From Candidatus Wolfebacteria bacterium RIFCSPLOWO2_01_FULL_45_19 (GTDB lineage Bacteria > Patescibacteriota > Minisyncoccia > UBA6257 > GWB1-45-9): 64,000 nt of DNA. Below are positions 2,179-15,488 of the stretch, piece by piece. The DNA is taken from positions 93,891 to 157,890 of the forward strand of contig MGIR01000001.1 of assembly GCA_001793855.1 (NCBI GenBank), in the 5' to 3' direction. The notes beneath the pieces were generated by a model. That model searched no databases. It saw only the letters and a program-made list of their open reading frames with translations, and had not been told where the DNA came from. Position numbers and translations under genes: made by a program. Every line of letters begins with the position of its first letter. The stretch's first letter is position 1.

Positions 2179-3681
2179 ATGGAAATTCCAAAAGAAGTAA
2201 AACTTATTCAGGATAAATTGACCAAAGCCGGATTTGAGGCCTATCTTGTCGGCGGGTGCGTCCGCGACCTTTTGCTTAAAACCGTTTATGGTGAGCCTGT
2301 CGAACCACAGGACTGGGATATTACGACAAATGCGAAACCAGAAGAGCTTATGAAACTTTTTCCGGACAGCGTTTACGAAAATCAGTTCGGCACGGTAGGA
2401 GCGAAAACGCGCTCGGAGGACCCGATCACCCGGCTGGTTGAAATAACTACGTTCAGAAAAGAAGGAAAATATACCGACAAGAGGCATCCGGACACAATTG
2501 CTTTTGCCGAGACATTGGAAGAGGACTTGTCGCGCCGCGATTTCATCGTAAACGCGCTTGCGATGGATATAAAAGGAAATATCACTGACCCTTTTGGCGG
2601 CCAAAAGGACCTAAAGGCTAAAGTTATCCGCGCCGTTGGAAATCCGGAAGAGCGATTTCAAGAAGATGCTCTGCGATTGATGCGCGCGGTGCGGTTTTCG
2701 GCGCAATTAAATTTTTCCATAGAAGTCAAAACTGCCGAAGCGGTTAAAAAACACGCCGGGCTTTTGGAATTTATCGCCAAAGAACGTATCGCCGATGAGG
2801 TTTTAAAATTGTTGATGACCGAGCGCGCTGCTGACGGTGTTGTGAAAATGTCGGAACTTGGTTTGCTTAAATACGTTTTGCCGGAATTGGCGGAGGGGAT
2901 TGATATGGAGCAGAACAAGCATCACAAATACACTGTATTTGAGCATAATCTTCGTTCGCTTGAGTACGCGGCTAAGCAAAATTTTCCTCTGGACATTCGT
3001 TTGTCAGCGCTTCTCCACGATGTCGGAAAGCCGCGCACTAGAGTATGGAAAAATGACCCGCGTGGCGAAAAAACTTTGAAAGGCAAAAAAGGCGATTGGA
3101 CTTTTTATCAGCACCAGTATGTTGGAGAAAAAATGGCGTTGCGAATGCTTGACCGTTTGCGTCTCCCTTGCAAACTTACCGAGAAAATCGCCTTGCTCGT
3201 GCGTGAGCATATGTTCGTTTACGACCCGGAACTGGTTACGGAAAGGGGGGTGCGTCGTCTTTTGAGACGCGTTGGTTCGGAAAATATGGACGACTTAATG
3301 CTTGTGCGCGAGGCAGACCGTATCGGTTCTGGGGTTGCCAAAGCGGTTCCGTATCGCTTGCGGCATCTTAAAGCGATGATAGAACGAGTAAAAAAAGATC
3401 CGGTGAGCGTGAAAATGCTTGCGGTGAAAGGAAATGACGTTATGGAAACGCTTAAAATTGAGCCGGGACCGAAAGTCGGCAAGATTCTCAATATTTTGCT
3501 TGAAGAAGTTCTTGATAGTCCGGTCTTGAACGATCGCGATAAGCTTGTTGTTCGCGTGCGAGAATTGGCAAAATTGCCGGAAAAAGAACTTGATAAAATG
3601 ACAGAATTAGCTAAACTTAAAGCTGTGGAAGAGCAAAAATGTACGGAGGAGGAAATAATGAAGAAATTTTTCGTGAAGTAA
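2179..3681 (+). CDS. cca: CCA-adding tRNA nucleotidyltransferase with HD domain
   Basis: The N-terminal PolBeta nucleotidyltransferase region (GGCVRDLLL, DWDITT) and the HD motif (LLHDVGKP) are present. The length is 500 aa. Confidence 0.85.
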   Translation: MEIPKEVKLIQDKLTKAGFEAYLVGGCVRDLLLKTVYGEPVEPQDWDITTNAKPEELMKLFPDSVYENQFGTVGAKTRSEDPITRLVEITTFRKEGKYTDKRHPDTIAFAETLEEDLSRRDFIVNALAMDIKGNITDPFGGQKDLKAKVIRAVGNPEERFQEDALRLMRAVRFSAQLNFSIEVKTAEAVKKHAGLLEFIAKERIADEVLKLLMTERAADGVVKMSELGLLKYVLPELAEGIDMEQNKHHKYTVFEHNLRSLEYAAKQNFPLDIRLSALLHDVGKPRTRVWKNDPRGEKTLKGKKGDWTFYQHQYVGEKMALRMLDRLRLPCKLTEKIALLVREHMFVYDPELVTERGVRRLLRRVGSENMDDLMLVREADRIGSGVAKAVPYRLRHLKAMIERVKKDPVSVKMLAVKGNDVMETLKIEPGPKVGKILNILLEEVLDSPVLNDRDKLVVRVRELAKLPEKELDKMTELAKLKAVEEQKCTEEEIMKKFFVK

Positions 3682-3684
3682 AAA

Positions 3685-3716
3685 TGGGTTGTAGTATACC
3701 GGTAGTACGCGCGTTC
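3685..3716 (+). other. tRNA-Pro-like 5' half fragment (diverged paralog of 3733-3768)
   Basis: It aligns position by position with the acceptor, D-arm and anticodon 5' stem of the adjacent tRNA-Pro. Its acceptor 5' strand TGGGTTG can pair with CAGCCCG at 3854-3860. Confidence 0.45.
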
Positions 3717-3821
3717 GCCCCCACACTCATAACGGGGCATAGTATATCGGCAGTACGCACGCTTCGGGTGCGTGAAGGTTGGGTTCAATTCCCAATGCCC
3801 CGAAAGAATGAGTGTGGGGGC
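3717..3821. repeat. perfect 14-bp inverted repeat flanking tRNA-Pro
   Basis: gcccccacactcat (3717-3730) and atgagtgtgggggc (3808-3821) are reverse complements of each other. Confidence 0.75.
3733..3803 (+). tRNA. tRNA-Pro (anticodon CGG), no encoded CCA
   Basis: The acceptor stem is CGGGGCA/TGCCCCG. The D-stem is GTAT/GTAC, the anticodon arm is cacgc-TTCGGGT-gcgtg, and the T-arm is ttggg-TTCAATT-cccaa. Confidence 0.85.
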
Positions 3822-3823
3822 AA

Positions 3824-3861
3824 GGGTGCGTGAAGACCGGGTTCGTTTCCCGGCAGCCCGA
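3824..3861 (+). other. tRNA-Pro-like 3' half fragment (diverged paralog)
   Basis: gggtgcgtgaag is identical to the tRNA-Pro 3' half. It then carries a T-arm (ccggg-TTCGTTT-cccgg, lacking A58) and the acceptor strand CAGCCCG plus A. Confidence 0.45.
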
Positions 3862-3868
3862 CAAACAA

Positions 3869-4579
3869 ATGGAATTACAAAAATCTACAAAACAAGAGCG
3901 CCGAGAATTACGCCATCAAGAGAAAATGATGGAGCAAAAGCAACGGGCAAGAAAAGAATTTATAAAACGAATTATTTTTTGGTTCTCAATCCTTATCGTT
4001 ATTGGCGCTTTAATCTTCGGAGTTGCAAAATTTACCAACGCTCCGAGTGGCAGTGACGTTAATAATGATTGGATCAAAGGAAATAGAGAGGCATCTGTTA
4101 CCATTGTTGAATATAGCGATTTTCAATGTCCCGCGTGTGGCGCGTATTATCCTGTGACAAAACAACTCGTAGAGGAATTCGGCGAAAACATTGCTTTTGT
4201 ATATCGCCATTTCCCCTTGAGTCAAATTCACAAGAATGCCGAATTAGCGGCGCAGGCAGCGGAAGCGGCCGGCAAACAAAATAAATTTTGGGAAATGCAT
4301 GATATGATATTTGAAAACCAGAAAGAATGGTCAGACGAGAGAAATGTGAAAGAATTTTTTGTGATGTACGCGGAAGCTCTTAATTTGAACAAAGAACAAT
4401 TTGTTGCTGATTTTGATTTAAAGGAAGTAATGGATAAGATAAATGCAGATTATAAAAGCGGACTTCGCTACAGCGTGAACGCTGTTCCTACTTTTTTTCT
4501 GAACGGAGAGAAATTGCAAAATCCAAGAAATTACGAAGATTTTAAATCCATTATCCAAGAGTATATTTCTCAACAATAA
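3869..4579 (+). CDS. DsbA-family thiol:disulfide oxidoreductase, membrane-anchored
   Basis: An N-terminal transmembrane segment is followed by a thioredoxin fold with a CPAC active site (DFQCPACG). The start was set at MELQK after the tRNA-like fragment; the track's 3812 start overlaps it. Confidence 0.7.
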   Translation: MELQKSTKQERRELRHQEKMMEQKQRARKEFIKRIIFWFSILIVIGALIFGVAKFTNAPSGSDVNNDWIKGNREASVTIVEYSDFQCPACGAYYPVTKQLVEEFGENIAFVYRHFPLSQIHKNAELAAQAAEAAGKQNKFWEMHDMIFENQKEWSDERNVKEFFVMYAEALNLNKEQFVADFDLKEVMDKINADYKSGLRYSVNAVPTFFLNGEKLQNPRNYEDFKSIIQEYISQQ

Positions 4580-5196: not shown

Positions 5197-5280
5197 TTTC
5201 TCTTCTACCATTTTCAGTTCGTCCAAAGTTACCAACGCGTGTTCAACCAAGCCCTTATTTTTTTATATACTAAAAGAAAG

Positions 5281-5309
5281 TTGAGCGAAGGGTCAATGTA
5301 GGATATAAT
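5281..5309 (+). promoter_or_regulatory. sigma70-like promoter TTGAGC-N17-TATAAT
   Basis: The -35 element is at 5281-5286 and the -10 at 5304-5309. An AAGGAGG ribosome-binding site follows at 5342-5348, upstream of the ATG at 5354. Confidence 0.55.
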
Positions 5310-5353
5310 TACTTAGTTATAAGCACCTAAACAATTTTAAAAGGAGGTTGCGA

Positions 5354-6913
5354 ATGGGAAATCTGAAAGTAGCGTTTCTGACAATGGAAATGCTTATCGG
5401 TGAGCTTTCCGAACCGTTGCGCGGAGCCAATTTCAAAGGTGGGCTCGGCATTCTTGCCGGAGACATAGCGCGTAATTTTAAAGAAGTCGGTATAAATGCC
5501 ATGTGTTTCGTTCCGTTTTACGACAGGCCGTGGTTCGCTAAAGATACGCGCCTGGATTACAACAAGTTTGGTTCATTTCCGATTGAAATAGCAATTAATG
5601 GTCATAAGTTTGAAGTTAATGCACATAAAGCTTTTTGCGGCGCGCAAGACGTGTTCGGTTTGAGCCATCCGGAGATATTTGACGTTCTTTATACCGATGA
5701 CCGTCAAAAACGACTTTTGCAGGAAGTATTACTTGCCATTGTTGTTCCGCGAATGCTTAAAGCTGCGAATTTTGCTCCGGATGTCGTTTGGTTAAATGAA
5801 TCTCACACGGCTTTAATTATTCCGCATCTTAAAGAAGATCCGTTTTTCGCGCGGACTAAAATTCTTTTTACCACGCATACGCCTGTTCAAGCCGGAATGG
5901 AGAAATTTTATGATTATAATTTTGACAAGCTTGAACTTGCGCATCAACTGTATCGAGACGCGTTTATTAATAACGGCGTTCTTGACCTGACTCGCGGCGC
6001 GATGGTTTTAAGCGACGCGGTTAATGCGGTTTCCGAAGAGCATCGTGAGGTTACGAAAAGAATGTTTTCTGGTTTCGCCGATAAAATAACCGGTATTCGT
6101 AACGGAAGCGACGCGCGTTTTTGGACGCATAAAAGCACTTCTTATTTAGTGAACAGAAAAATAATTATTGAACTTGATGATTTGATGGAAATTCACGCTC
6201 AAGCGCGAGGCGAGGTCTTGGCCCTTGCAAATAAATTAAGCGGTTTGGCATTGAGTGAAAAAAAGCCCACGGCGTGGTTTGTCAGAAGGTTTGCGGGATA
6301 CAAAAATTTGTATCCGATGCTTGAGCCGATTCTTCCGGCGATTTGCGCGGAGCGGGGAAGTTATGTAAATACAAATCTTGGCGTGCTTGAAGGACTCGGA
6401 ATGCAGATTGTTGGCGCCGGCGTTGCTCCGGAAACCGACGGCTATTGTCTTGGCTGGATGTCTGAATTTACGCGTTTGGCTCGAGATGTTTTTCAAGGAC
6501 GATTTGCGTTTATTCCACAATACACTACCGAACTTTTGCAAGCCGGAGCTTGGGGTTCTGATGTTTGGCTTGCGACGCCGGAACCAGGCCTTGAGGCGTG
6601 CGGCACAAGCGACCAGCGCGCGATATTGAACGGCATTCCGGTTATTACTTCCAGGACCGGCGGTCCGATGGAATATCTGGAAGAATTTAATCCGGAAAGC
6701 GCCAATGGCTGCGGATTTTTCATTGACCCATACAATTCCAGAACGCTTTACGAGAAATTGCGAATTTTCAGCTCGCTTTGGTACGCGTGGAAAGAGCAGG
6801 GAGATGAGCGTTATCCAACGCTGAAATTAAACGCCTTTGGGAAGCGGCACGAACTTGATATAGTGACGTGTCTTGAAAAATACAAACAACTTATGTTTAG
6901 CACGGCGCGTTGA
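5354..6913 (+). CDS. GT35-family alpha-glucan phosphorylase homolog (short form)
   Basis: GT35 motifs are present: KGGLGILAGD, NESHTAL and FTTHTPV. The segment EACGTSDQRAILNG aligns to the phosphorylase [14 protein letters not shown]. The start was moved to the ATG at 5354, 6 nt after the track's TTG. Confidence 0.6.
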   Translation: MGNLKVAFLTMEMLIGELSEPLRGANFKGGLGILAGDIARNFKEVGINAMCFVPFYDRPWFAKDTRLDYNKFGSFPIEIAINGHKFEVNAHKAFCGAQDVFGLSHPEIFDVLYTDDRQKRLLQEVLLAIVVPRMLKAANFAPDVVWLNESHTALIIPHLKEDPFFARTKILFTTHTPVQAGMEKFYDYNFDKLELAHQLYRDAFINNGVLDLTRGAMVLSDAVNAVSEEHREVTKRMFSGFADKITGIRNGSDARFWTHKSTSYLVNRKIIIELDDLMEIHAQARGEVLALANKLSGLALSEKKPTAWFVRRFAGYKNLYPMLEPILPAICAERGSYVNTNLGVLEGLGMQIVGAGVAPETDGYCLGWMSEFTRLARDVFQGRFAFIPQYTTELLQAGAWGSDVWLATPEPGLEACGTSDQRAILNGIPVITSRTGGPMEYLEEFNPESANGCGFFIDPYNSRTLYEKLRIFSSLWYAWKEQGDERYPTLKLNAFGKRHELDIVTCLEKYKQLMFSTAR

Positions 6914-8165: not shown

Positions 8166-8202
8166 AAAAACGTAACATCCACCACTTAAAACATGGGTGG
8201 CT

Positions 8203-8227
8203 ATACCGCTATTTGCGGTATTTTTTA
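8203..8227 (+). terminator. rho-independent terminator
   Basis: A hairpin (taccgc-tattt-gcggta) is followed by T6. Confidence 0.5.
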
Positions 8228-8279
8228 TTTTGAGATATATTTATTGCGCACTTTAAATGTTTAGTTTGGAGGTAGGGAT

Positions 8280-9149
8280 ATGCTTATTCTTACTCCTGAG
8301 CGTATCAAAAGCGACAGCAAACTTGTCGCGCAAGCGGCAAAATCAATCACGCCGAAAATTTTGGGAAAAATCATTGATTTAACGGTGCTCAATCCCGCGG
8401 CAACCGTTTTGGACATTGAAAAGCTTTGTATTGAGGCGAATGAAATAGAGTCGTTCGTGTGCGTATACGGTAGTCGTGTGTTGGACGTTTATAAATCAGC
8501 GTCTAGATTTAATCTTAAGCGAATCCGTGGCATTGTATCCGTCATCGGATTTCCTTCCGGAGCGCAGACGACATTGGCTAAAACAGCGGAAGTTCAAGAT
8601 GTTTTTGGCACCGGAGCTGATGAGATTGATATGGTTTTGAATGTTGGGAAGTTTTTGGATGGAAATGGTTTTTACGTTTATGACGATATCTATGCAGTCG
8701 CCAGTGTTCTAAAAGCAGCGCGCGCGAATGAATGCAGTGCGCCAGTTTTAAAAGTTATTCAGGAAAATTGTCTTTTGACTGATGAACAAAAGCGAATGGC
8801 AGCGCGTATAACGGCGGAAGTCGCCAAAGAAACCGAAGTTCGTATGTTCGCGAAGACTTCAACCGGATTCGGCAAGCCGAAAGACTGGAATACGCCAGTC
8901 GGCGCGACTGTGGAAGATGTTTGGCTGATGCACGAAGAAATAAAGCCACTTCAAGAACAAGGCGTTGTTATCGGCATCAAAGCCGCCGGTGGAATAAAAG
9001 ACGCGCGTTCCGTGATTCAGATGATGCTCGCGGCGGGATGCTTCAATGACGATTTAACGCTGAAAAAGATTTTTTTAGATCTTTTTAGAGTCGGAGCCAG
9101 CGCCGGAAAAGCCATTATTGAGGATTTTAGAAAAAATTTCATGTCTTAA
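8280..9149 (+). CDS. deoC: deoxyribose-phosphate aldolase
   Basis: The DERA fold is present with the active-site lysine in FAKTSTGF, plus GIKAAGGI and IDMVLNVG. Confidence 0.8.
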   Translation: MLILTPERIKSDSKLVAQAAKSITPKILGKIIDLTVLNPAATVLDIEKLCIEANEIESFVCVYGSRVLDVYKSASRFNLKRIRGIVSVIGFPSGAQTTLAKTAEVQDVFGTGADEIDMVLNVGKFLDGNGFYVYDDIYAVASVLKAARANECSAPVLKVIQENCLLTDEQKRMAARITAEVAKETEVRMFAKTSTGFGKPKDWNTPVGATVEDVWLMHEEIKPLQEQGVVIGIKAAGGIKDARSVIQMMLAAGCFNDDLTLKKIFLDLFRVGASAGKAIIEDFRKNFMS

Positions 9150-10313: not shown

Positions 10314-10367
10314 TTGTCCCGCACCTATTGTGCTATACATTCATTCGGCACAATAGGTGCGGGACAA
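10314..10367. repeat. perfect 20-bp-stem hairpin
   Basis: ttgtcccgcacctattgtgc and gcacaataggtgcgggacaa are separated by a 14-nt loop. The hairpin lies between uppS and tRNA-Ala with no T-tract. Confidence 0.6.
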
Positions 10368-10368
10368 A

Positions 10369-10439
10369 GGGCCTATAGTAAAGTGGCATTACACCGCATT
10401 CGCATTGCGGGGGCGGGAGTTCGATTCTCCCTAGGTCCA
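10369..10439 (+). tRNA. tRNA-Ala (anticodon CGC), G3:U70 present, no encoded CCA
   Basis: The acceptor stem is GGGCCTA/TAGGTCC and carries the G3-U70 pair. The anticodon arm is ccgca-TTCGCAT-tgcgg, the T-loop is TTCGATT and the discriminator is A. Confidence 0.85.
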
Positions 10440-10443
10440 CATC

Positions 10444-10478
10444 AAAAAAACACGACACTCGAGTGTCGTGTTTTTTTT
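10444..10478. terminator. bidirectional rho-independent terminator
   Basis: A palindrome (cacgacactcgagtgtcgtg) is flanked by A7 and T8. It serves tRNA-Ala on the + strand and the peroxiredoxin gene on the - strand. Confidence 0.7.
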
Positions 10479-13560: not shown

Positions 13561-15488
13561 TGGCTTTAGAGGAATTGGAAAAAGAACTTTATAGGCGGGA
13601 TTTCGACATATCGGAAAAAAGACGGGCTAAACGATCGTCTACGTCTGGCCGGCCCGCAGGCCATGCCGGCGAGCAGGCAAGCAAACCGCCCGAGACTTGG
13701 GGAGAAAAATCAGAAAATGAACGAGGCGTGATAGAAGGCGCGTTTGAGGAGGCGTTTGAAAAAACCACTAGCGTGGGCCGTCGTTTATTTTTTGTAATAA
13801 TTGGAGTGTCTGTTTTGGTTATCGCGGTCAGCGGGTTTTATCTTTATCAAGTTTTTTCCGCGCGCGGCATAGCAGTTGCGATAGAAGCGCCGGACCAAAC
13901 GTTTATTGGCAGTCCGTTTATGCTTTCGGTGGTAACAAAAAACGATTCGAGAAGCGTTCTTAGCGAGGCCTCCATCACGCTCAATCTTCCTCCCGGAACG
14001 GTGATTGTGGGAGAAGCGTCCGATAAGACAGTTGAAATAAAAGAATTGGGCAGTATTGGTCTTGGCGGTATAAACCGGCAAGATTTTGAAGTTATAGTGC
14101 TTGACGGCGAGAACACGATTAAAAATTTTGAAGTGGCGCTAGTTTACAAACCTTCGACTTTGACAACGCCTTTTGAAAAGAAGATTGTAAAAAACGTAGC
14201 GGTGGGTAAACCGGCTTTGACTCTTGAGGTTTTCGCGCCAAACAGAGTTTTTTCCGGAGAAAATTTTGAGCTTTCGTTAAATTACGCGAACAATGCCGAT
14301 TTCGATTTTGAAAATTTGAATTTGAAGATTGAATATCCACCCAGCTTTACTTTTAAATCCGCTACTTTGAATCCGGACGCTGGGAATAATTTTTGGAATT
14401 TAGGGGATTTAAAAAGCGGTTCAGAAGGCATTCTAGTTATTGATGGCAATATAGTCGGTCCAGACCAGTCGTTTTTTGACTTGCGCTCAACGATTTCGGT
14501 GTCTTTGGCCGGTAAAAGATATGACATAGTTGGCAGAAACACAAGTCTTTCAATATCTCCATCGCCATTGGCTTTGTCAATTTTTGTTAATGACAGCGTG
14601 GACTATATCGCCAAACCGGGAGATTTTCTGAATTATATGATAACCTATCAAAATAATACCGGAACCGGTTTACGCGACGTTATTTTGACTCTGCGGCTTG
14701 TGGGAGAAATGTTTGATTTTACCAACGTAAATACAGACGGCTTTGTAAGTTCGTTAAATAGAGTCGTAAGCTGGAACGCGGCAAACGTTCCGGAATTACG
14801 GCTTCTGCCCGCCGGAGCGCGTGGCAACGTGAATGTATCAATAAAAGCTACTTCGGCTTATCCTATTTCGCGTCTAAACGATAAGGACTTTATTTTATCC
14901 GCAAGCGCTCAAATTGAATCTCCGACTGTTCCAGCTCTTGTTGGCGCGGAAAGGACAATAGGCGTCGCGGCGCTTGAAACAAAAGTTGGTGGAAGAATAG
15001 ATATTAACGCCAAGGCATTTTTCCGAGACGCCGCTTCGGGAATTTTGAATTCCGGTCCGTGGCCGCCCATGGTTGACGCGCCGACGCAATATACGGTTCA
15101 TTGGGAATTGAAAAATTTTAGTACGGACGTAAGTAGCGTCGAAGTCCGGGCTTTTCTGCTCGGCGGAATAAGATGGACAGGAAAAGTACAATCCAATATT
15201 GAAAATATTCCCGAATATAACGAGCGCACGCAGGAAATTATCTGGAAAATACCGAGAATTCAGGCGACACGCGGTATCATCGGCGAACCAATTAAATCCA
15301 TTTTTCAAATAGAAGCAACGCCGTCTGTCGGCTTCATCGGTCGATATCTTCCTCTTGTCAGCGAAACGCGCGTTCGCGGCATTGATGAATTTACCGGCCT
15401 TGAAATTACGAATTTGGATTTCGGTTTATCAACTGTCTTGACGGACGATATGACGGTTGGAGCTGGACAAGGAGCCGTAAGGCAATAA
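13560..15488 (+). CDS. large hypothetical membrane-anchored protein with repeated beta-sandwich-like segments
   Basis: An N-terminal transmembrane segment follows a basic, charged N-terminus. The start overlaps the recO stop (TAATG). No family was recognised. Confidence 0.5.
   Translation: MALEELEKELYRRDFDISEKRRAKRSSTSGRPAGHAGEQASKPPETWGEKSENERGVIEGAFEEAFEKTTSVGRRLFFVIIGVSVLVIAVSGFYLYQVFSARGIAVAIEAPDQTFIGSPFMLSVVTKNDSRSVLSEASITLNLPPGTVIVGEASDKTVEIKELGSIGLGGINRQDFEVIVLDGENTIKNFEVALVYKPSTLTTPFEKKIVKNVAVGKPALTLEVFAPNRVFSGENFELSLNYANNADFDFENLNLKIEYPPSFTFKSATLNPDAGNNFWNLGDLKSGSEGILVIDGNIVGPDQSFFDLRSTISVSLAGKRYDIVGRNTSLSISPSPLALSIFVNDSVDYIAKPGDFLNYMITYQNNTGTGLRDVILTLRLVGEMFDFTNVNTDGFVSSLNRVVSWNAANVPELRLLPAGARGNVNVSIKATSAYPISRLNDKDFILSASAQIESPTVPALVGAERTIGVAALETKVGGRIDINAKAFFRDAASGILNSGPWPPMVDAPTQYTVHWELKNFSTDVSSVEVRAFLLGGIRWTGKVQSNIENIPEYNERTQEIIWKIPRIQATRGIIGEPIKSIFQIEATPSVGFIGRYLPLVSETRVRGIDEFTGLEITNLDFGLSTVLTDDMTVGAGQGAVRQ

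What the first reader, a model, noticed from the sequence alone, without database searches (positions are those of the whole stretch)
3685..3861. Intact tRNA-Pro(CGG) flanked by perfect 14-bp inverted repeats, nested between the split halves of a paralogous tRNA-like sequence
3733-3803 is a canonical tRNA-Pro. It is bracketed by gcccccacactcat (3717-3730) and its exact reverse complement (3808-3821). Outside the repeat, 3685-3716 aligns base by base with the 5' half of that tRNA (acceptor, D-arm, anticodon 5' stem). 3824-3861 aligns with its 3' half, with 12 of 12 identical bases at gggtgcgtgaag. The outer ends TGGGTTG and CAGCCCG can form a 7-bp acceptor stem with two G-U pairs, and CCGGG-TTCGTTT-CCCGG forms a T-arm that lacks A58. 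Either a tRNA-Pro paralog has been split in its anticodon loop by an IR-bounded insertion carrying a second tRNA, or this is a tRNA whose ~110-nt anticodon-loop insert is held by a 14-bp helix and itself encodes a tRNA. Neither arrangement is a standard bacterial layout.
Basis: seen in the sequence. Interest (0 to 1): 0.7.

Follow-up and report, generated by a model that had tools for sequence, protein, structure and literature searches.

The report
tRNA gene nested inside older tRNA
A complete proline tRNA gene, bracketed by a 14-bp inverted repeat, sits inside the anticodon loop of the older resident proline tRNA gene of a Patescibacteria (CPR) bacterium, and dozens of related genomes show the same undescribed "tRNA-in-tRNA" layout, which looks like a recurrent way of replacing tRNA genes.

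Summary
Positions 3733-3803 are a canonical tRNA-Pro(CGG). It is bracketed by a perfect 14-bp inverted repeat (3717-3730 / 3808-3821). Positions 3685-3716 and 3822-3862 are the two halves of a second tRNA-Pro.

The outer halves are not a paralog. They are the resident gene, orthologous to the uninterrupted tRNA-Pro(CGG) that follows the CCA-adding-enzyme gene in relatives (60/64 identical to L001). The inner gene resembles the tRNA-Pro of a more distant lineage (65/71). Six independent assemblies of the same species carry the identical nest, and the nearest other species lack it.

The layout recurs. At least 12 of about 70 syntenic Patescibacteria loci and at least 30 metagenome loci have such nests or their relics. 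Nests also occur for Pro(GGG), Arg(CCG) and Ala, sometimes as "Russian dolls". Arms differ between loci but stay complementary through compensatory changes.

Outers show relaxed constraint. Here that means T58 (A58 in 146/146 working tRNA-Pro), two G-U pairs in the acceptor stem, a lost nucleotide 31 and a G53T polymorphism. Elsewhere outers have mismatches, extra hairpin insertions, deletions and loops lacking U33/C34.

Best reading (0.6): an IR-bounded tRNA cassette replaced the resident gene, and the outer is a relic. The way the cassette moves is unknown. No published description was found.

The parts
2179..3681 (+). CCA-adding enzyme gene (context). A tRNA-Pro(CGG) gene lies downstream of its orthologs in most relatives, in many directly after the stop codon.
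   Evidence: Pfam hits PolyA_pol, PolyA_pol_RNAbd, HD and tRNA_NucTran2_2. Synteny in L001-L080.
3685..3716 (+). Outer (resident) tRNA-Pro 5' half. Acceptor 5' strand 3685-3691 TGGGTTG, D arm 3694-3708, anticodon-stem 5' strand 3710-3714 CGCGT, loop remnant TC 3715-3716.
   Evidence: nhmmer E = 0.0016. The two outer halves together are 60/64 identical to L001's uninterrupted orthologous tRNA. ARAGORN calls a tRNA after in-silico deletion of the insert.
3717..3730 (+). Left arm of the inverted repeat, GCCCCCACACTCAT
   Evidence: Exact reverse complement of 3808-3821 and unique in the window. The same arm family (GCCCYCACACC...) occurs in L011, L036, L124 and L174 with compensatory changes.
3733..3803 (+). 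Inner complete tRNA-Pro(CGG), anticodon at 3765-3767, no encoded CCA. Presumed to be the working gene.
   Evidence: ARAGORN. Rfam tRNA 54.1 bits. Closest to the tRNA-Pro of L008/L017/L028, 65/71 identical.
3808..3821 (+). Right arm of the inverted repeat, ATGAGTGTGGGGGC
   Evidence: With the outer anticodon stem it forms a 24-nt composite helix that is 83% complementary (3707-3730 / 3808-3831).
3822..3862 (+). Outer tRNA-Pro 3' half. Linker AA 3822-3823, loop remnant GGGT 3824-3827, anticodon-stem 3' strand 3828-3832, T arm 3837-3853 with T58 at 3846, acceptor 3' strand 3854-3860, A73 at 3861.
   Evidence: nhmmer E = 2.9e-5. Within the outer 3' exon (3828-3862) it differs from L001's tRNA only at position 58. 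SNP G3841T (G53) in L081.
3869..4579 (+). DsbA-like thioredoxin gene (context)
   Evidence: Pfam Thioredoxin_4 and DSBA.

Best explanation
The locus is a tRNA-in-tRNA nest made by gene replacement.

- What happened (inferred from comparison): the resident tRNA-Pro(CGG) gene lies downstream of the CCA-adding-enzyme gene in most related Patescibacteria. Here it was split in its anticodon loop by a 106-nt cassette. The cassette is a complete tRNA-Pro(CGG) gene of different ancestry flanked by 14-bp inverted-repeat arms.
- Which gene works (inferred): the inner gene is the working tRNA. The outer halves are an inactivated relic that still pairs as a cloverleaf.
- Transcription and processing (inferred): the nest is transcribed from the resident gene's promoter, which would explain why inner and outer always have the same orientation. 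The relic 5' half plus left arm act as leader, and the right arm plus relic 3' half act as trailer. The arms pair and stack on the relic anticodon stem, giving a composite helix of about 24 bp. This closes off the inner pre-tRNA as its own folding unit. A/T-rich unpaired spacers (AA upstream, AAGA downstream) leave its ends open to RNase P and RNase Z, possibly after an RNase III cut in the long helix.
- Recurrence (shown): the same process has happened repeatedly in Patescibacteria, for several isoacceptors and sometimes iteratively.
- Mobility (open): the cassette encodes no protein and has no target-site duplication. My preferred guess is a structure-directed recombinase or transposase acting in trans on the palindromic stem-loops of tRNA genes, with selection keeping only insertions whose cargo replaces the gene that was hit.
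For: Resident versus newcomer
- Outer exons are closest to L001's uninterrupted syntenic tRNA (60/64). The inner is closest to L008/L017/L028 (65/71).
- The nearest relatives outside the species have an uninterrupted tRNA-Pro(CGG) (L001, L214) or, on a contig that ends 25 nt into the gene, what looks like one (L215). The insertion is therefore lineage-specific.

Relaxed constraint on the window's outer
- T58, against A58 in 146/146 called tRNA-Pro.
- U1-G72 and U5-G68, the loss of nucleotide 31, and no U33 in register.
- The population SNP G53T.

Outers elsewhere show all stages of decay
- Acceptor mismatches occur in 4/34 outers against 2/128 called tRNAs, p = 0.018.
- Some outers have extra hairpin insertions in the D loop, T loop or anticodon stem (L046, L065, L040, L124).
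- Some loci keep only one half of the outer (L060, L003).
- Some outers are degenerate (L064, L043).
- L175 and L179 are Russian dolls with chimeric deletions.
- Class B outers lack U33 and C34, so they cannot decode.

Recurrence
- Flanking inverted repeats of at least 9 bp occur at 8/67 tRNA-Pro(CGG) against 2/107 other tRNAs.
- At least 30 nests were found in metagenomes.
- Pro(GGG), Arg(CCG) and Ala nests exist.

Arms and gene content
- Arms keep pairing through compensatory changes within arm families.
- No transposase, integrase, splicing endonuclease or RtcB lies in the 64-kb window.
- The insert matches no Rfam family other than tRNA.
Against: - 27 of 34 outers keep a perfect 7/7 acceptor stem, and most keep intact T arms. 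This is more intact than naive neutral decay predicts, although the metagenome sample was selected for an intact outer T loop.
- Inner and outer of one nest are often nearly identical inside but differ by compensatory pairs in the acceptor stem (20 of 34 differences, p = 5e-6). This could mean that both helices are under selection.
- The 3' junction ...GGG(UG/C)AAGG(G)U is conserved in more than 20 nests whose arms are otherwise unrelated. That suggests a sequence-specific function that a pure relic does not need.
- In the window, and in a subset of nests (L091, L164, L178, L205, L145, L204), all or nearly all anticodon-loop nucleotides survive, so a precise excision could restore a CGG loop.
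- No mobilising enzyme, empty-versus-filled polymorphism or free cassette was found.
Confidence: 0.6

Rival explanations
1. The outer is a working tRNA gene with a tRNA-bearing intervening sequence. The transcript folds as a nested cloverleaf. RNase P and RNase Z, or another endonuclease acting at the base of the arm helix, release the inner tRNA. The outer halves, held together by the 14-bp helix, are then trimmed and ligated, so one transcript yields two tRNA-Pro molecules. This would be protein-dependent tRNA splicing in bacteria.
For: - The outer can form a full cloverleaf.
- All seven loop nucleotides, TTC plus GGGT, survive in the window.
- Arms keep pairing by compensatory change, and G-T positions outnumber A-C positions.
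- Most outers keep perfect acceptor and T stems.
- Acceptor helices of inner and outer differ in a compensatory way.
- Some relatives carry several short hairpin inserts in one outer, like multi-intron archaeal tRNAs.
Against: - There is no bulge-helix-bulge motif and no group I core.
- Excision leaves a 4-bp anticodon stem or an 8-nt loop, because nucleotide 31 is missing.
- The outer has T58, a G53T SNP and U1-G72.
- Class B nests have no U33 or C34.
- The product would duplicate the inner's CGG anticodon.
- Outers occur as half-relics and chimeras.
- The small hairpins occur in both orientations, as L079 against L046 shows.
- No EndA or RtcB lies in the window.
Confidence: 0.12
2. The outer no longer decodes, but selection keeps it, together with the arm helix, as an RNA scaffold for making the inner tRNA. 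The paired outer halves and arms sequester sequences that would otherwise cross-pair with the homologous inner halves. They also form a leader-trailer stem of about 24 bp, like those flanking rRNAs, that is cut by RNase III to start maturation.
For: - The composite helix 3707-3730/3808-3831 is 24 nt and 83% complementary, and the fold has z = -5.3.
- Arms covary.
- Leader-trailer repeats are found only around nested tRNAs.
- The excess of compensatory acceptor differences between inner and outer would make the two helices orthogonal.
- The purine-rich 3' junction is conserved.
Against: - Many nests have lost one outer half or carry mismatches without losing the inner tRNA.
- L091 has identical inner and outer acceptors.
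- Gene conversion that spares the repeat edges could also explain the acceptor pattern.
- No cleavage data exist.
Confidence: 0.15
3. The layout is a chance resemblance or an assembly chimera, for example strain variants of one tRNA gene joined wrongly.
For: tRNA genes are repeats that can confuse assemblers.
Against: - Six independent assemblies give the same sequence.
- Both halves are statistically significant.
- About 0.03 perfect 14-bp inverted repeats are expected by chance.
- The same architecture, with different arm sequences, is found in dozens of unrelated contigs.
Confidence: 0.01

Closest known systems
Integrative elements that insert into tRNA genes and bring a replacement copy. 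Examples are tyrosine-integrase islands and prophages at tRNA anticodon or T loops, and the Caldiarchaeum subterraneum tRNA-Thr locus (PMC3293823).
   Same: A tRNA gene is the target. The incoming DNA supplies tRNA sequence that keeps the function. Fragments of the old gene remain next to it. The palindromic stem-loops of the tRNA gene are the insertion sites.
   Different: Those elements are kilobases long and encode a recombinase. They duplicate one part of the tRNA as a direct repeat and leave one orphan fragment. Here the insert is 106 nt and codes for no protein. It carries a whole tRNA, is bounded by inverted rather than direct repeats, and leaves both halves of the old gene around it.
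Miniature inverted-repeat elements and REP/REPIN-type palindromic elements of bacteria (own knowledge)
   Same: The insert is small and non-autonomous, with terminal inverted repeats that form a hairpin. Families of related arms occur across genomes. Cargo-less hairpins of similar style are inserted into relic tRNAs.
   Different: No target-site duplication is seen. The arms vary in sequence but stay complementary. The element carries a functional tRNA gene as cargo. It always lies inside a gene of the same isoacceptor family and in the same orientation. No transposase or RAYT-type gene was found.
Archaeal disrupted tRNA genes: multiple or non-canonical BHB introns, intron transposition in Thermoproteales, split and permuted tRNAs (PMC4090602, PMC3978253, PMC4033280). 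Also RNA genes inside tRNA introns, such as the box C/D RNA in the Haloferax tRNA-Trp intron (own knowledge).
   Same: Short structured inserts sit at several positions of tRNA genes (D loop, position 25/26, anticodon loop, T loop). Related inserts occur in different tRNA genes. A helix joins the two tRNA halves. An RNA gene lies inside the intervening sequence.
   Different: The organism is a bacterium. There is no bulge-helix-bulge motif. No splicing endonuclease was found, and there is no evidence of splicing. The interrupted copies look degenerate and always have an intact copy inside or beside them.
Group I introns in Patescibacteria tRNA genes (PMC13011429)
   Same: Same phylum. The anticodon loop of a tRNA gene is interrupted. 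Standard tRNA finders miss the interrupted gene.
   Different: The insert is only 106 nt, has no ribozyme core (the Rfam scan found only tRNA), and is itself a tRNA with complementary flanks.
Leader-trailer processing stems of rRNA operons and RNase III-excised intervening sequences of 23S rRNA (PMC11270868 for CPR)
   Same: A long helix formed by sequences on either side of a stable RNA. CPR genomes are rich in such inserts.
   Different: Such stems are not known around single bacterial tRNAs or inside another tRNA gene. Cleavage here is untested.

Membership tests
Canonical bacterial tRNA (inner gene, 3733-3803) | Cloverleaf with conserved tertiary nucleotides, scoring above the Rfam tRNA gathering score | tested here: met
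   ARAGORN calls Pro(CGG). Rfam RF00005 scores 54.1 bits against a gathering score of 29.
Canonical bacterial tRNA (outer gene after removing the insert) | Intact cloverleaf with U33, A58, G53-C61 and a 5-bp anticodon stem with a 7-nt loop | tested here: not met
   The stems do form. However, position 58 is T, against A in 146/146 called tRNA-Pro. Nucleotide 31 is missing relative to L001. The acceptor has two G-U pairs, seen in 0/128 called tRNAs. G53T segregates in the population.
Archaeal/eukaryal BHB tRNA intron | Bulge-helix-bulge motif (two 3-nt bulges separated by 4 bp) at the exon-intron junctions | tested here: not met
   The junction is a 5-bp stem, then a 2 x 6 nt asymmetric internal loop, then an uninterrupted 14-bp helix.
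Archaeal/eukaryal BHB tRNA intron | Splicing endonuclease (EndA) and RtcB-type ligase encoded by the organism | not testable with these tools
   None appears among the 58 ORFs of the window scanned with Pfam. The rest of the genome was not available.
Group I intron in a bacterial tRNA anticodon loop | Ribozyme core (P3-P9), typically 200 nt or more, matching the Rfam group I intron model | tested here: not met
   The insert is 106 nt. An Rfam scan of 3500-4000 at E up to 10 gives only tRNA and chance-level hits.
MITE / DNA transposon with terminal inverted repeats | Terminal inverted repeats | tested here: met
   The repeat is a perfect 14 bp. Related arm families occur in other genomes.
MITE / DNA transposon with terminal inverted repeats | Target-site duplication flanking the repeats | tested here: not met
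   The flanks are TC and AA. Only L176 shows a possible TTC duplication.
MITE / DNA transposon with terminal inverted repeats | Multiple copies in the genome and a cognate transposase | tested here: inconclusive
   The arm sequence is unique in the 64-kb window, and no transposase lies in the window. The whole genome was not searched.
Integrase-mediated island at a tRNA gene | Integrase gene plus a direct repeat of the tRNA 3' segment (attL/attR) | tested here: not met
   The insert has no ORF. The repeats are inverted, and both halves of the old gene flank the insert. By contrast, several non-CPR-like metagenome loci from the same scan show the classical 3'-segment duplication.
RNase III leader-trailer processing stem | A helix of about 20 bp or more formed by sequences flanking the mature RNA | tested here: met
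   3707-3730 pairs with 3808-3831 over 24 nt at 83% complementarity and appears in the minimum-free-energy fold.
RNase III leader-trailer processing stem | Cleavage within the helix by RNase III | not testable with these tools
   No RNA end data are available.

The most novel reading that the evidence does not exclude
Nested outers, or at least those whose anticodon-loop nucleotides survive, as in this window, are real genes. A Patescibacteria-specific, protein-dependent pathway would recognise the arm helix and its conserved purine-rich junction. It would cut out the intervening tRNA and ligate the halves. That would be a third kind of bacterial intron and a two-for-one tRNA gene, and the short cargo-less hairpins in D, anticodon and T loops would be introns of the same class.
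Probability: 0.12. Interest if true: 0.95.

Novelty: new variant of a known kind. Interest (0 to 1): 0.8.

Why it matters
If the replacement reading is right, tRNA genes in these ultra-small bacteria turn over by a route not described before. A protein-less, hairpin-bounded tRNA cassette drops into the stem-loops of the cognate gene and takes over its job. Layered relics remain that record successive replacements.

- It bears on how streamlined genomes keep or exchange essential RNA genes, and on horizontal transfer of tRNAs.
- It may relate to possible conflicts with nucleases that target anticodon loops. This is speculation.
- It matters for annotation. Public gene calls place a 64-aa ORF and the start of the DsbA-like gene over this nest, and tRNA finders ignore the outer gene.
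- It gives a concrete bacterial parallel to the disrupted tRNA genes of archaea. It makes the question of whether bacteria have protein-dependent tRNA splicing directly testable with a handful of junction-specific reads.

Tried and rejected
- ARAGORN intron and low-threshold modes on 3601-3950 never call the outer gene, so the outer had to be shown by in-silico deletion and nhmmer.
- A search for a BHB motif by hand found none. The group I intron reading was rejected with Rfam.
- The assembly-artefact reading was rejected with six independent contigs.
- A phage origin found no support. The same pattern scan of the viral contigs gave 7 hits, none of them nested.
- A Pfam survey of 58 ORFs in the window looked for a transposase, integrase, HUH/RAYT enzyme, EndA, RtcB or RNase III. 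Only housekeeping genes were found.
- Spread by homologous recombination through the tRNA halves was considered and then down-weighted. In the window the outer anticodon stem, right next to the junction, is of the local type (CGCG, as in L001), not the CACG type of other class A nests. A donor tract would therefore have to end within about 5 nt of the junction.
- Local duplication of the resident gene does not fit the window, where inner and outer have different nearest relatives. It could still apply to L091, where inner and outer are identical.
- The test of G-T against A-C mismatches in the arms, meant to separate RNA-level from DNA-level pairing, gave 55:10 with a biased score. With an unbiased score it gave 6:3, about 5:2 independent events. 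This is suggestive only.
- An integron attC reading and an IS5-like terminal repeat (GAAGGTGCG) were considered from memory and dropped as coincidental.
- Seven literature searches found no report of nested tRNA genes in bacteria.
Full report
**1. The observation**

- ARAGORN finds five tRNAs in the window, one of them tRNA-Pro(CGG) at 3733-3803. Rfam's tRNA model scores it 54.1 bits.
- GCCCCCACACTCAT (3717-3730) and ATGAGTGTGGGGGC (3808-3821) are exact reverse complements. Each occurs once in the window. About 0.03 such pairs are expected by chance.
- Outside the repeat, 3685-3716 reads as acceptor 5' strand (TGGGTTG), D arm and anticodon-stem 5' strand. 3822-3862 reads as loop remnant, anticodon-stem 3' strand, variable loop, T arm (CCGGG TTCGTTT CCCGG), acceptor 3' strand (CAGCCCG) and A73.
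- ARAGORN's intron modes do not see this outer gene. When the insert is deleted in silico, ARAGORN calls a tRNA from 3685 to about 3861 at nearly every junction, and Pro(CGG) for 3717|3824 and 3716|3825.
- A profile built from 60 Patescibacteria tRNA-Pro genes finds both halves significantly in 701 kb of tRNA-masked DNA (E = 0.0016 and 2.9e-5).
- The 178-nt stretch folds as a nested structure, z = -5.3.

**2. Organism and context**

The upstream gene (2179-3681) is a CCA-adding enzyme and the downstream gene is a DsbA-like thioredoxin. Orthologs of the CCA enzyme come from Patescibacteria/Parcubacteria genome bins labelled Harrisonbacteria, Colwellbacteria, Paceibacterota and so on. The 100%-identical protein cluster carries the names Parcubacteria GW2011_GWB1_45_9 and a 'Wolfebacteria' bin. 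The other 56 ORFs scanned in the window are housekeeping genes or have no Pfam match. There is no transposase, integrase, splicing endonuclease or RtcB.

**3. Not an artefact, and lineage-specific**

Six contigs from different samples and assemblers (ENA, JGI, Logan) are 99.9% identical to the window over 4.5 kb and contain the same nest. The only difference inside the nest is G3841T in L081. That changes outer G53, half of the universally conserved G53-C61 pair.

The nearest relatives outside the species have the following at this site.
- L001 (78% CCA-enzyme identity) has one uninterrupted tRNA-Pro(CGG). L215 (78%) starts the same gene, but its contig ends 25 nt in.
- L214 (77%) has one uninterrupted tRNA-Pro(CGG).
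- L213 (80%) has no tRNA there.

**4. Which gene is old and which is new**

A tRNA-Pro(CGG) downstream of the CCA-enzyme gene is conserved synteny in most of the 80 related loci. The window's outer exons are 60/64 identical to L001's gene at that position. Within the outer 3' exon (3828-3862) the only difference from L001 is position 58. The inner gene is most like the tRNA-Pro of L008/L017/L028 (65/71), whose CCA enzymes are only 61-65% identical to the window's. So the outer is the resident gene and the inner is the newcomer.

Relative to L001 the outer has C1T, C5T, a D-loop C-to-T change, the loss of nucleotide 31 and A58T.

**5. The layout recurs**

- Among tRNAs in the 80 syntenic loci, tight flanking inverted repeats of 9 bp or more occur at 8 of 67 tRNA-Pro(CGG) genes. 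They occur at 2 of 107 other tRNAs (p = 0.014). One of those two (Ala in L079) was examined and is itself a nest.
- Nests or their relics are present in L011, L015, L032, L036, L046, L051 and L060 by nhmmer. By eye they are also present in L003, L040, L043, L064 and L065.
- A pattern scan of the metagenome collection looked for a Pro(CGG) anticodon loop, a T loop, and a second T loop 30-60 nt later. At least 30 are nests of the same design.
- In L198 three nests lie in a row. They are Pro(CGG), Pro(GGG), and Arg(CCG) inserted in the D loop of an outer tRNA-Arg whose CCG anticodon arm is intact. L090 and L079 hold Ala-in-Ala nests.
- The inner gene always belongs to the same isoacceptor family as the outer and has the same orientation.
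- L175 has three shells with a chimeric 3' side, and L197 has a second shell.
- The viral collection holds no nests.

**6. Anatomy shared by the nests**

The arms are 10-16 bp and fall into sequence families:
- GCCCYCACACC..., which includes this window
- GCCCCGTTAGAKAT
- (G/A)CCCCGCACYAAA
- GCCTGCCCGCC...
- CAGTGAKGTTCTT

Within a family, changes are compensatory. Examples are L119 against L163, L152 against L147, and the window against L174 and L036, where L036 shows a T-G intermediate. Short A/T-rich unpaired spacers separate the arms from the inner tRNA.

The junctions fall into classes.
- Class A (window, L065, L139, L197): N30-TTC | G.CCC...GGG.C | AAGGGT-stem.
- Class B (15 or more nests): stem-YY | CGCCC...GGGTG | AAGGT-stem. 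These have no U33 or C34 left.
- Clean insertions (L091, L164, L178, L205, L145, L204): exact removal of the insert would restore TTCGGGT/A.
- Other insertion points are position 25/26 (L015, L060) and the D loop (the Arg nest in L198, and L171).

Relic outers often carry additional short hairpins of 30-40 nt in D loops, T loops or stems. One such element occurs in both orientations (L046 against L079).

**7. Is the outer alive?**

Against:
- Working tRNA-Pro genes in this data set have A58 in 146 of 146 cases, an acceptor mismatch in 2 of 128, and never two non-Watson-Crick acceptor pairs.
- The window's outer has T58, two G-U pairs, a missing nucleotide 31 and a segregating G53T.
- Across 34 parsed outers, 4 have acceptor mismatches (p = 0.018) and 3 have two or more non-Watson-Crick pairs (p = 0.009).
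- Outers exist as single halves, chimeras and heavily degenerate remnants.
- Class B loops cannot decode.
- The product would duplicate the inner's anticodon.

For:
- 27 of 34 outers keep a perfect acceptor stem.
- The conserved junction motif suggests a function.
- In nests whose inner and outer are at most 20% different, differences pile up in the acceptor stem. The rates are 22% of acceptor positions, against 2.6% in the D arm and 6.3% in the T arm.
- In the seven least diverged nests, 20 of 34 differences are acceptor positions arranged as compensatory pairs. In comparable pairs of working tRNAs from different loci the acceptor share is 22% (p = 5e-6).

The acceptor pattern could be explained in two ways. 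Gene conversion between the direct-repeat halves may spare the edges. Alternatively, selection may favour acceptor helices that do not cross-pair within one transcript. I could not separate these.

**8. Explanation**

The best-supported reading is gene replacement. An IR-bounded cassette with a complete tRNA-Pro(CGG) entered the anticodon loop of the resident gene. The inner gene took over, and the outer is a relic.

The arms pair in the transcript. With the relic anticodon stem they form a helix of about 24 bp. I infer that this helix insulates the inner pre-tRNA, and that it may be a processing stem.

How the cassette moves is open.
- There is no ORF, no target-site duplication and no nearby enzyme.
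- Insertion sites are the loops or junctions of the tRNA gene's own palindromes.
- Cargo and target always match, which suggests either selection on outcomes or a homology requirement.
- Homologous recombination through the halves is unlikely for this window, because the outer anticodon stem next to the junction is of the local type.

**9. Literature**

Searches of the held library found several related topics. These were group I introns in Patescibacteria tRNAs (PMC13011429), rRNA insertions in CPR (PMC11270868), archaeal disrupted tRNAs, and a mobile element that split a tRNA-Thr gene in Caldiarchaeum (PMC3293823). No report of a tRNA gene nested in another tRNA gene in bacteria was found. 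[quoted passage not shown]

**10. Verdict**

The finding is real, recurrent and apparently undescribed. I file it as a new variant of tRNA-gene-targeting mobile DNA, with a tRNA as its only cargo. There is a minority chance (about 0.12) that it marks a new kind of bacterial tRNA splicing.

Noticed in passing
L198 (reverse-complement coordinates) 13868-14056, 14243-14438, 14465-14655: One metagenome contig has three nests in a row: Pro(CGG), Pro(GGG), and Arg(CCG) inserted in the D loop of an outer tRNA-Arg that keeps its CCG anticodon arm. All three share the right-end motif GGGTGAA. The spacer between the first two nests holds further tRNA-Pro fragments in both orientations.
   Followed up: partly
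L175 (oriented) about 534-812; L179; L197 about 8170-8550: These are Russian-doll nests with up to three shells of tRNA-Pro. In L175 the 3' side is a chimera: the anticodon-stem strand of the middle shell is fused to the T arm and acceptor of the outermost shell.
   Followed up: partly
L046 about 5197-5454; L065 about 6240-6530; L040; L124; L079; L043: Relic tRNA halves carry additional 30-40-nt hairpin inserts with C-rich starts and G-rich ends in D loops, T loops and stems. One family (CCTTGCCC..CCGTAGCTTTAGCGAAGG..) occurs in both orientations and also in leaders upstream of intact tRNA-Pro genes (L014, L038, L041, L073, L011). Another (GTCCCGACATTAT...GGATCCTCGA) is shared by L124 and L079.
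   Followed up: partly
nests L151, L124, L163, L036, L198, L046, L147 and others: Inner and outer of one nest are nearly identical in the D, anticodon and T arms. They carry different, each self-consistent, acceptor helices (20 of 34 differences, p = 5e-6 against working-tRNA pairs). The cause is unresolved. It could be edge-sparing gene conversion or selection against cross-pairing.
   Followed up: yes
L062 6836-6950 (- strand): A tRNA in a Leu-?-Pro cluster has acceptor GCGGGTG/CACCCGC, U73 and an encoded CCA. It carries an insert of about 40-45 nt in its anticodon arm, and no intact copy is visible nearby. ARAGORN's intron mode calls it Ala(TGC), but the G3-C70 pair argues against Ala. It could be a sole-copy interrupted tRNA. 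Next to it, ARAGORN calls a tRNA with an 8-nt anticodon loop (tcga).
   Followed up: partly
L043 3755-3940: An intact tRNA-Lys(CTT) is followed directly by a second tRNA-Lys(CTT)-like copy. That copy's D loop holds two small complementary hairpins (TCCGCCAAAGGCGGA / TCCGCCTTTGGCGGA). So an interrupted copy can lie beside its intact replacement rather than around it.
   Followed up: no
L149, L171, L131, L167: Nests also occur in tRNA-Pro genes that do not look like Patescibacteria genes. L149 and L171 have 76-nt tRNAs with a GCGCAG D arm, and L171 encodes CCA. In L131 the outer anticodon stem itself serves as the flanking helix. L167 has a G1-C72, archaeal-looking tRNA-Pro nested in the D region of a similar outer. 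The taxonomy of these contigs was not determined.
   Followed up: no
window 3639-3833 and 3830-4579: Public gene calls on the same-species contigs place a 64-aa ORF with no Pfam hit, and the start of the DsbA-like gene, across the tRNA nest (L081 2961-3155 and 3152-3901). These are probably annotation artefacts. An ATG at 3869 gives a 236-aa product that still contains the whole thioredoxin domain.
   Followed up: partly
window 10314-10367 and 10444-10477: A perfect 20-bp hairpin ends one base before tRNA-Ala(CGC) (10369-10440). A perfect 17-bp palindrome with a T run follows the tRNA. No outer tRNA halves are visible, so this is not a nest. The upstream hairpin has no T run and its role is unclear.
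   Followed up: partly
L087, L103, L109, L129, L130, L133, L138, L141, L173, L177, L191: The same pattern scan also picked up the classical layout. A 74-78-nt tRNA-Pro(CGG) is followed 30-45 nt later by a direct repeat of its own T arm and acceptor 3' strand. I take this to be the att-site duplication left by integrative elements. It is useful as a contrast to the nests.
   Followed up: no
L051 about 5485-5700 and L064 about 6230-6520: Two syntenic loci have an outer that reads as tRNA-Pro with a TTTGGGG loop (UGG-like anticodon). It is interrupted after the anticodon by a Pro(CGG) cassette plus a second shared hairpin (GGAATACT..AGTATTCC). The outers have acceptor mismatches, and in L064 the T loop is degenerate.
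   Followed up: partly
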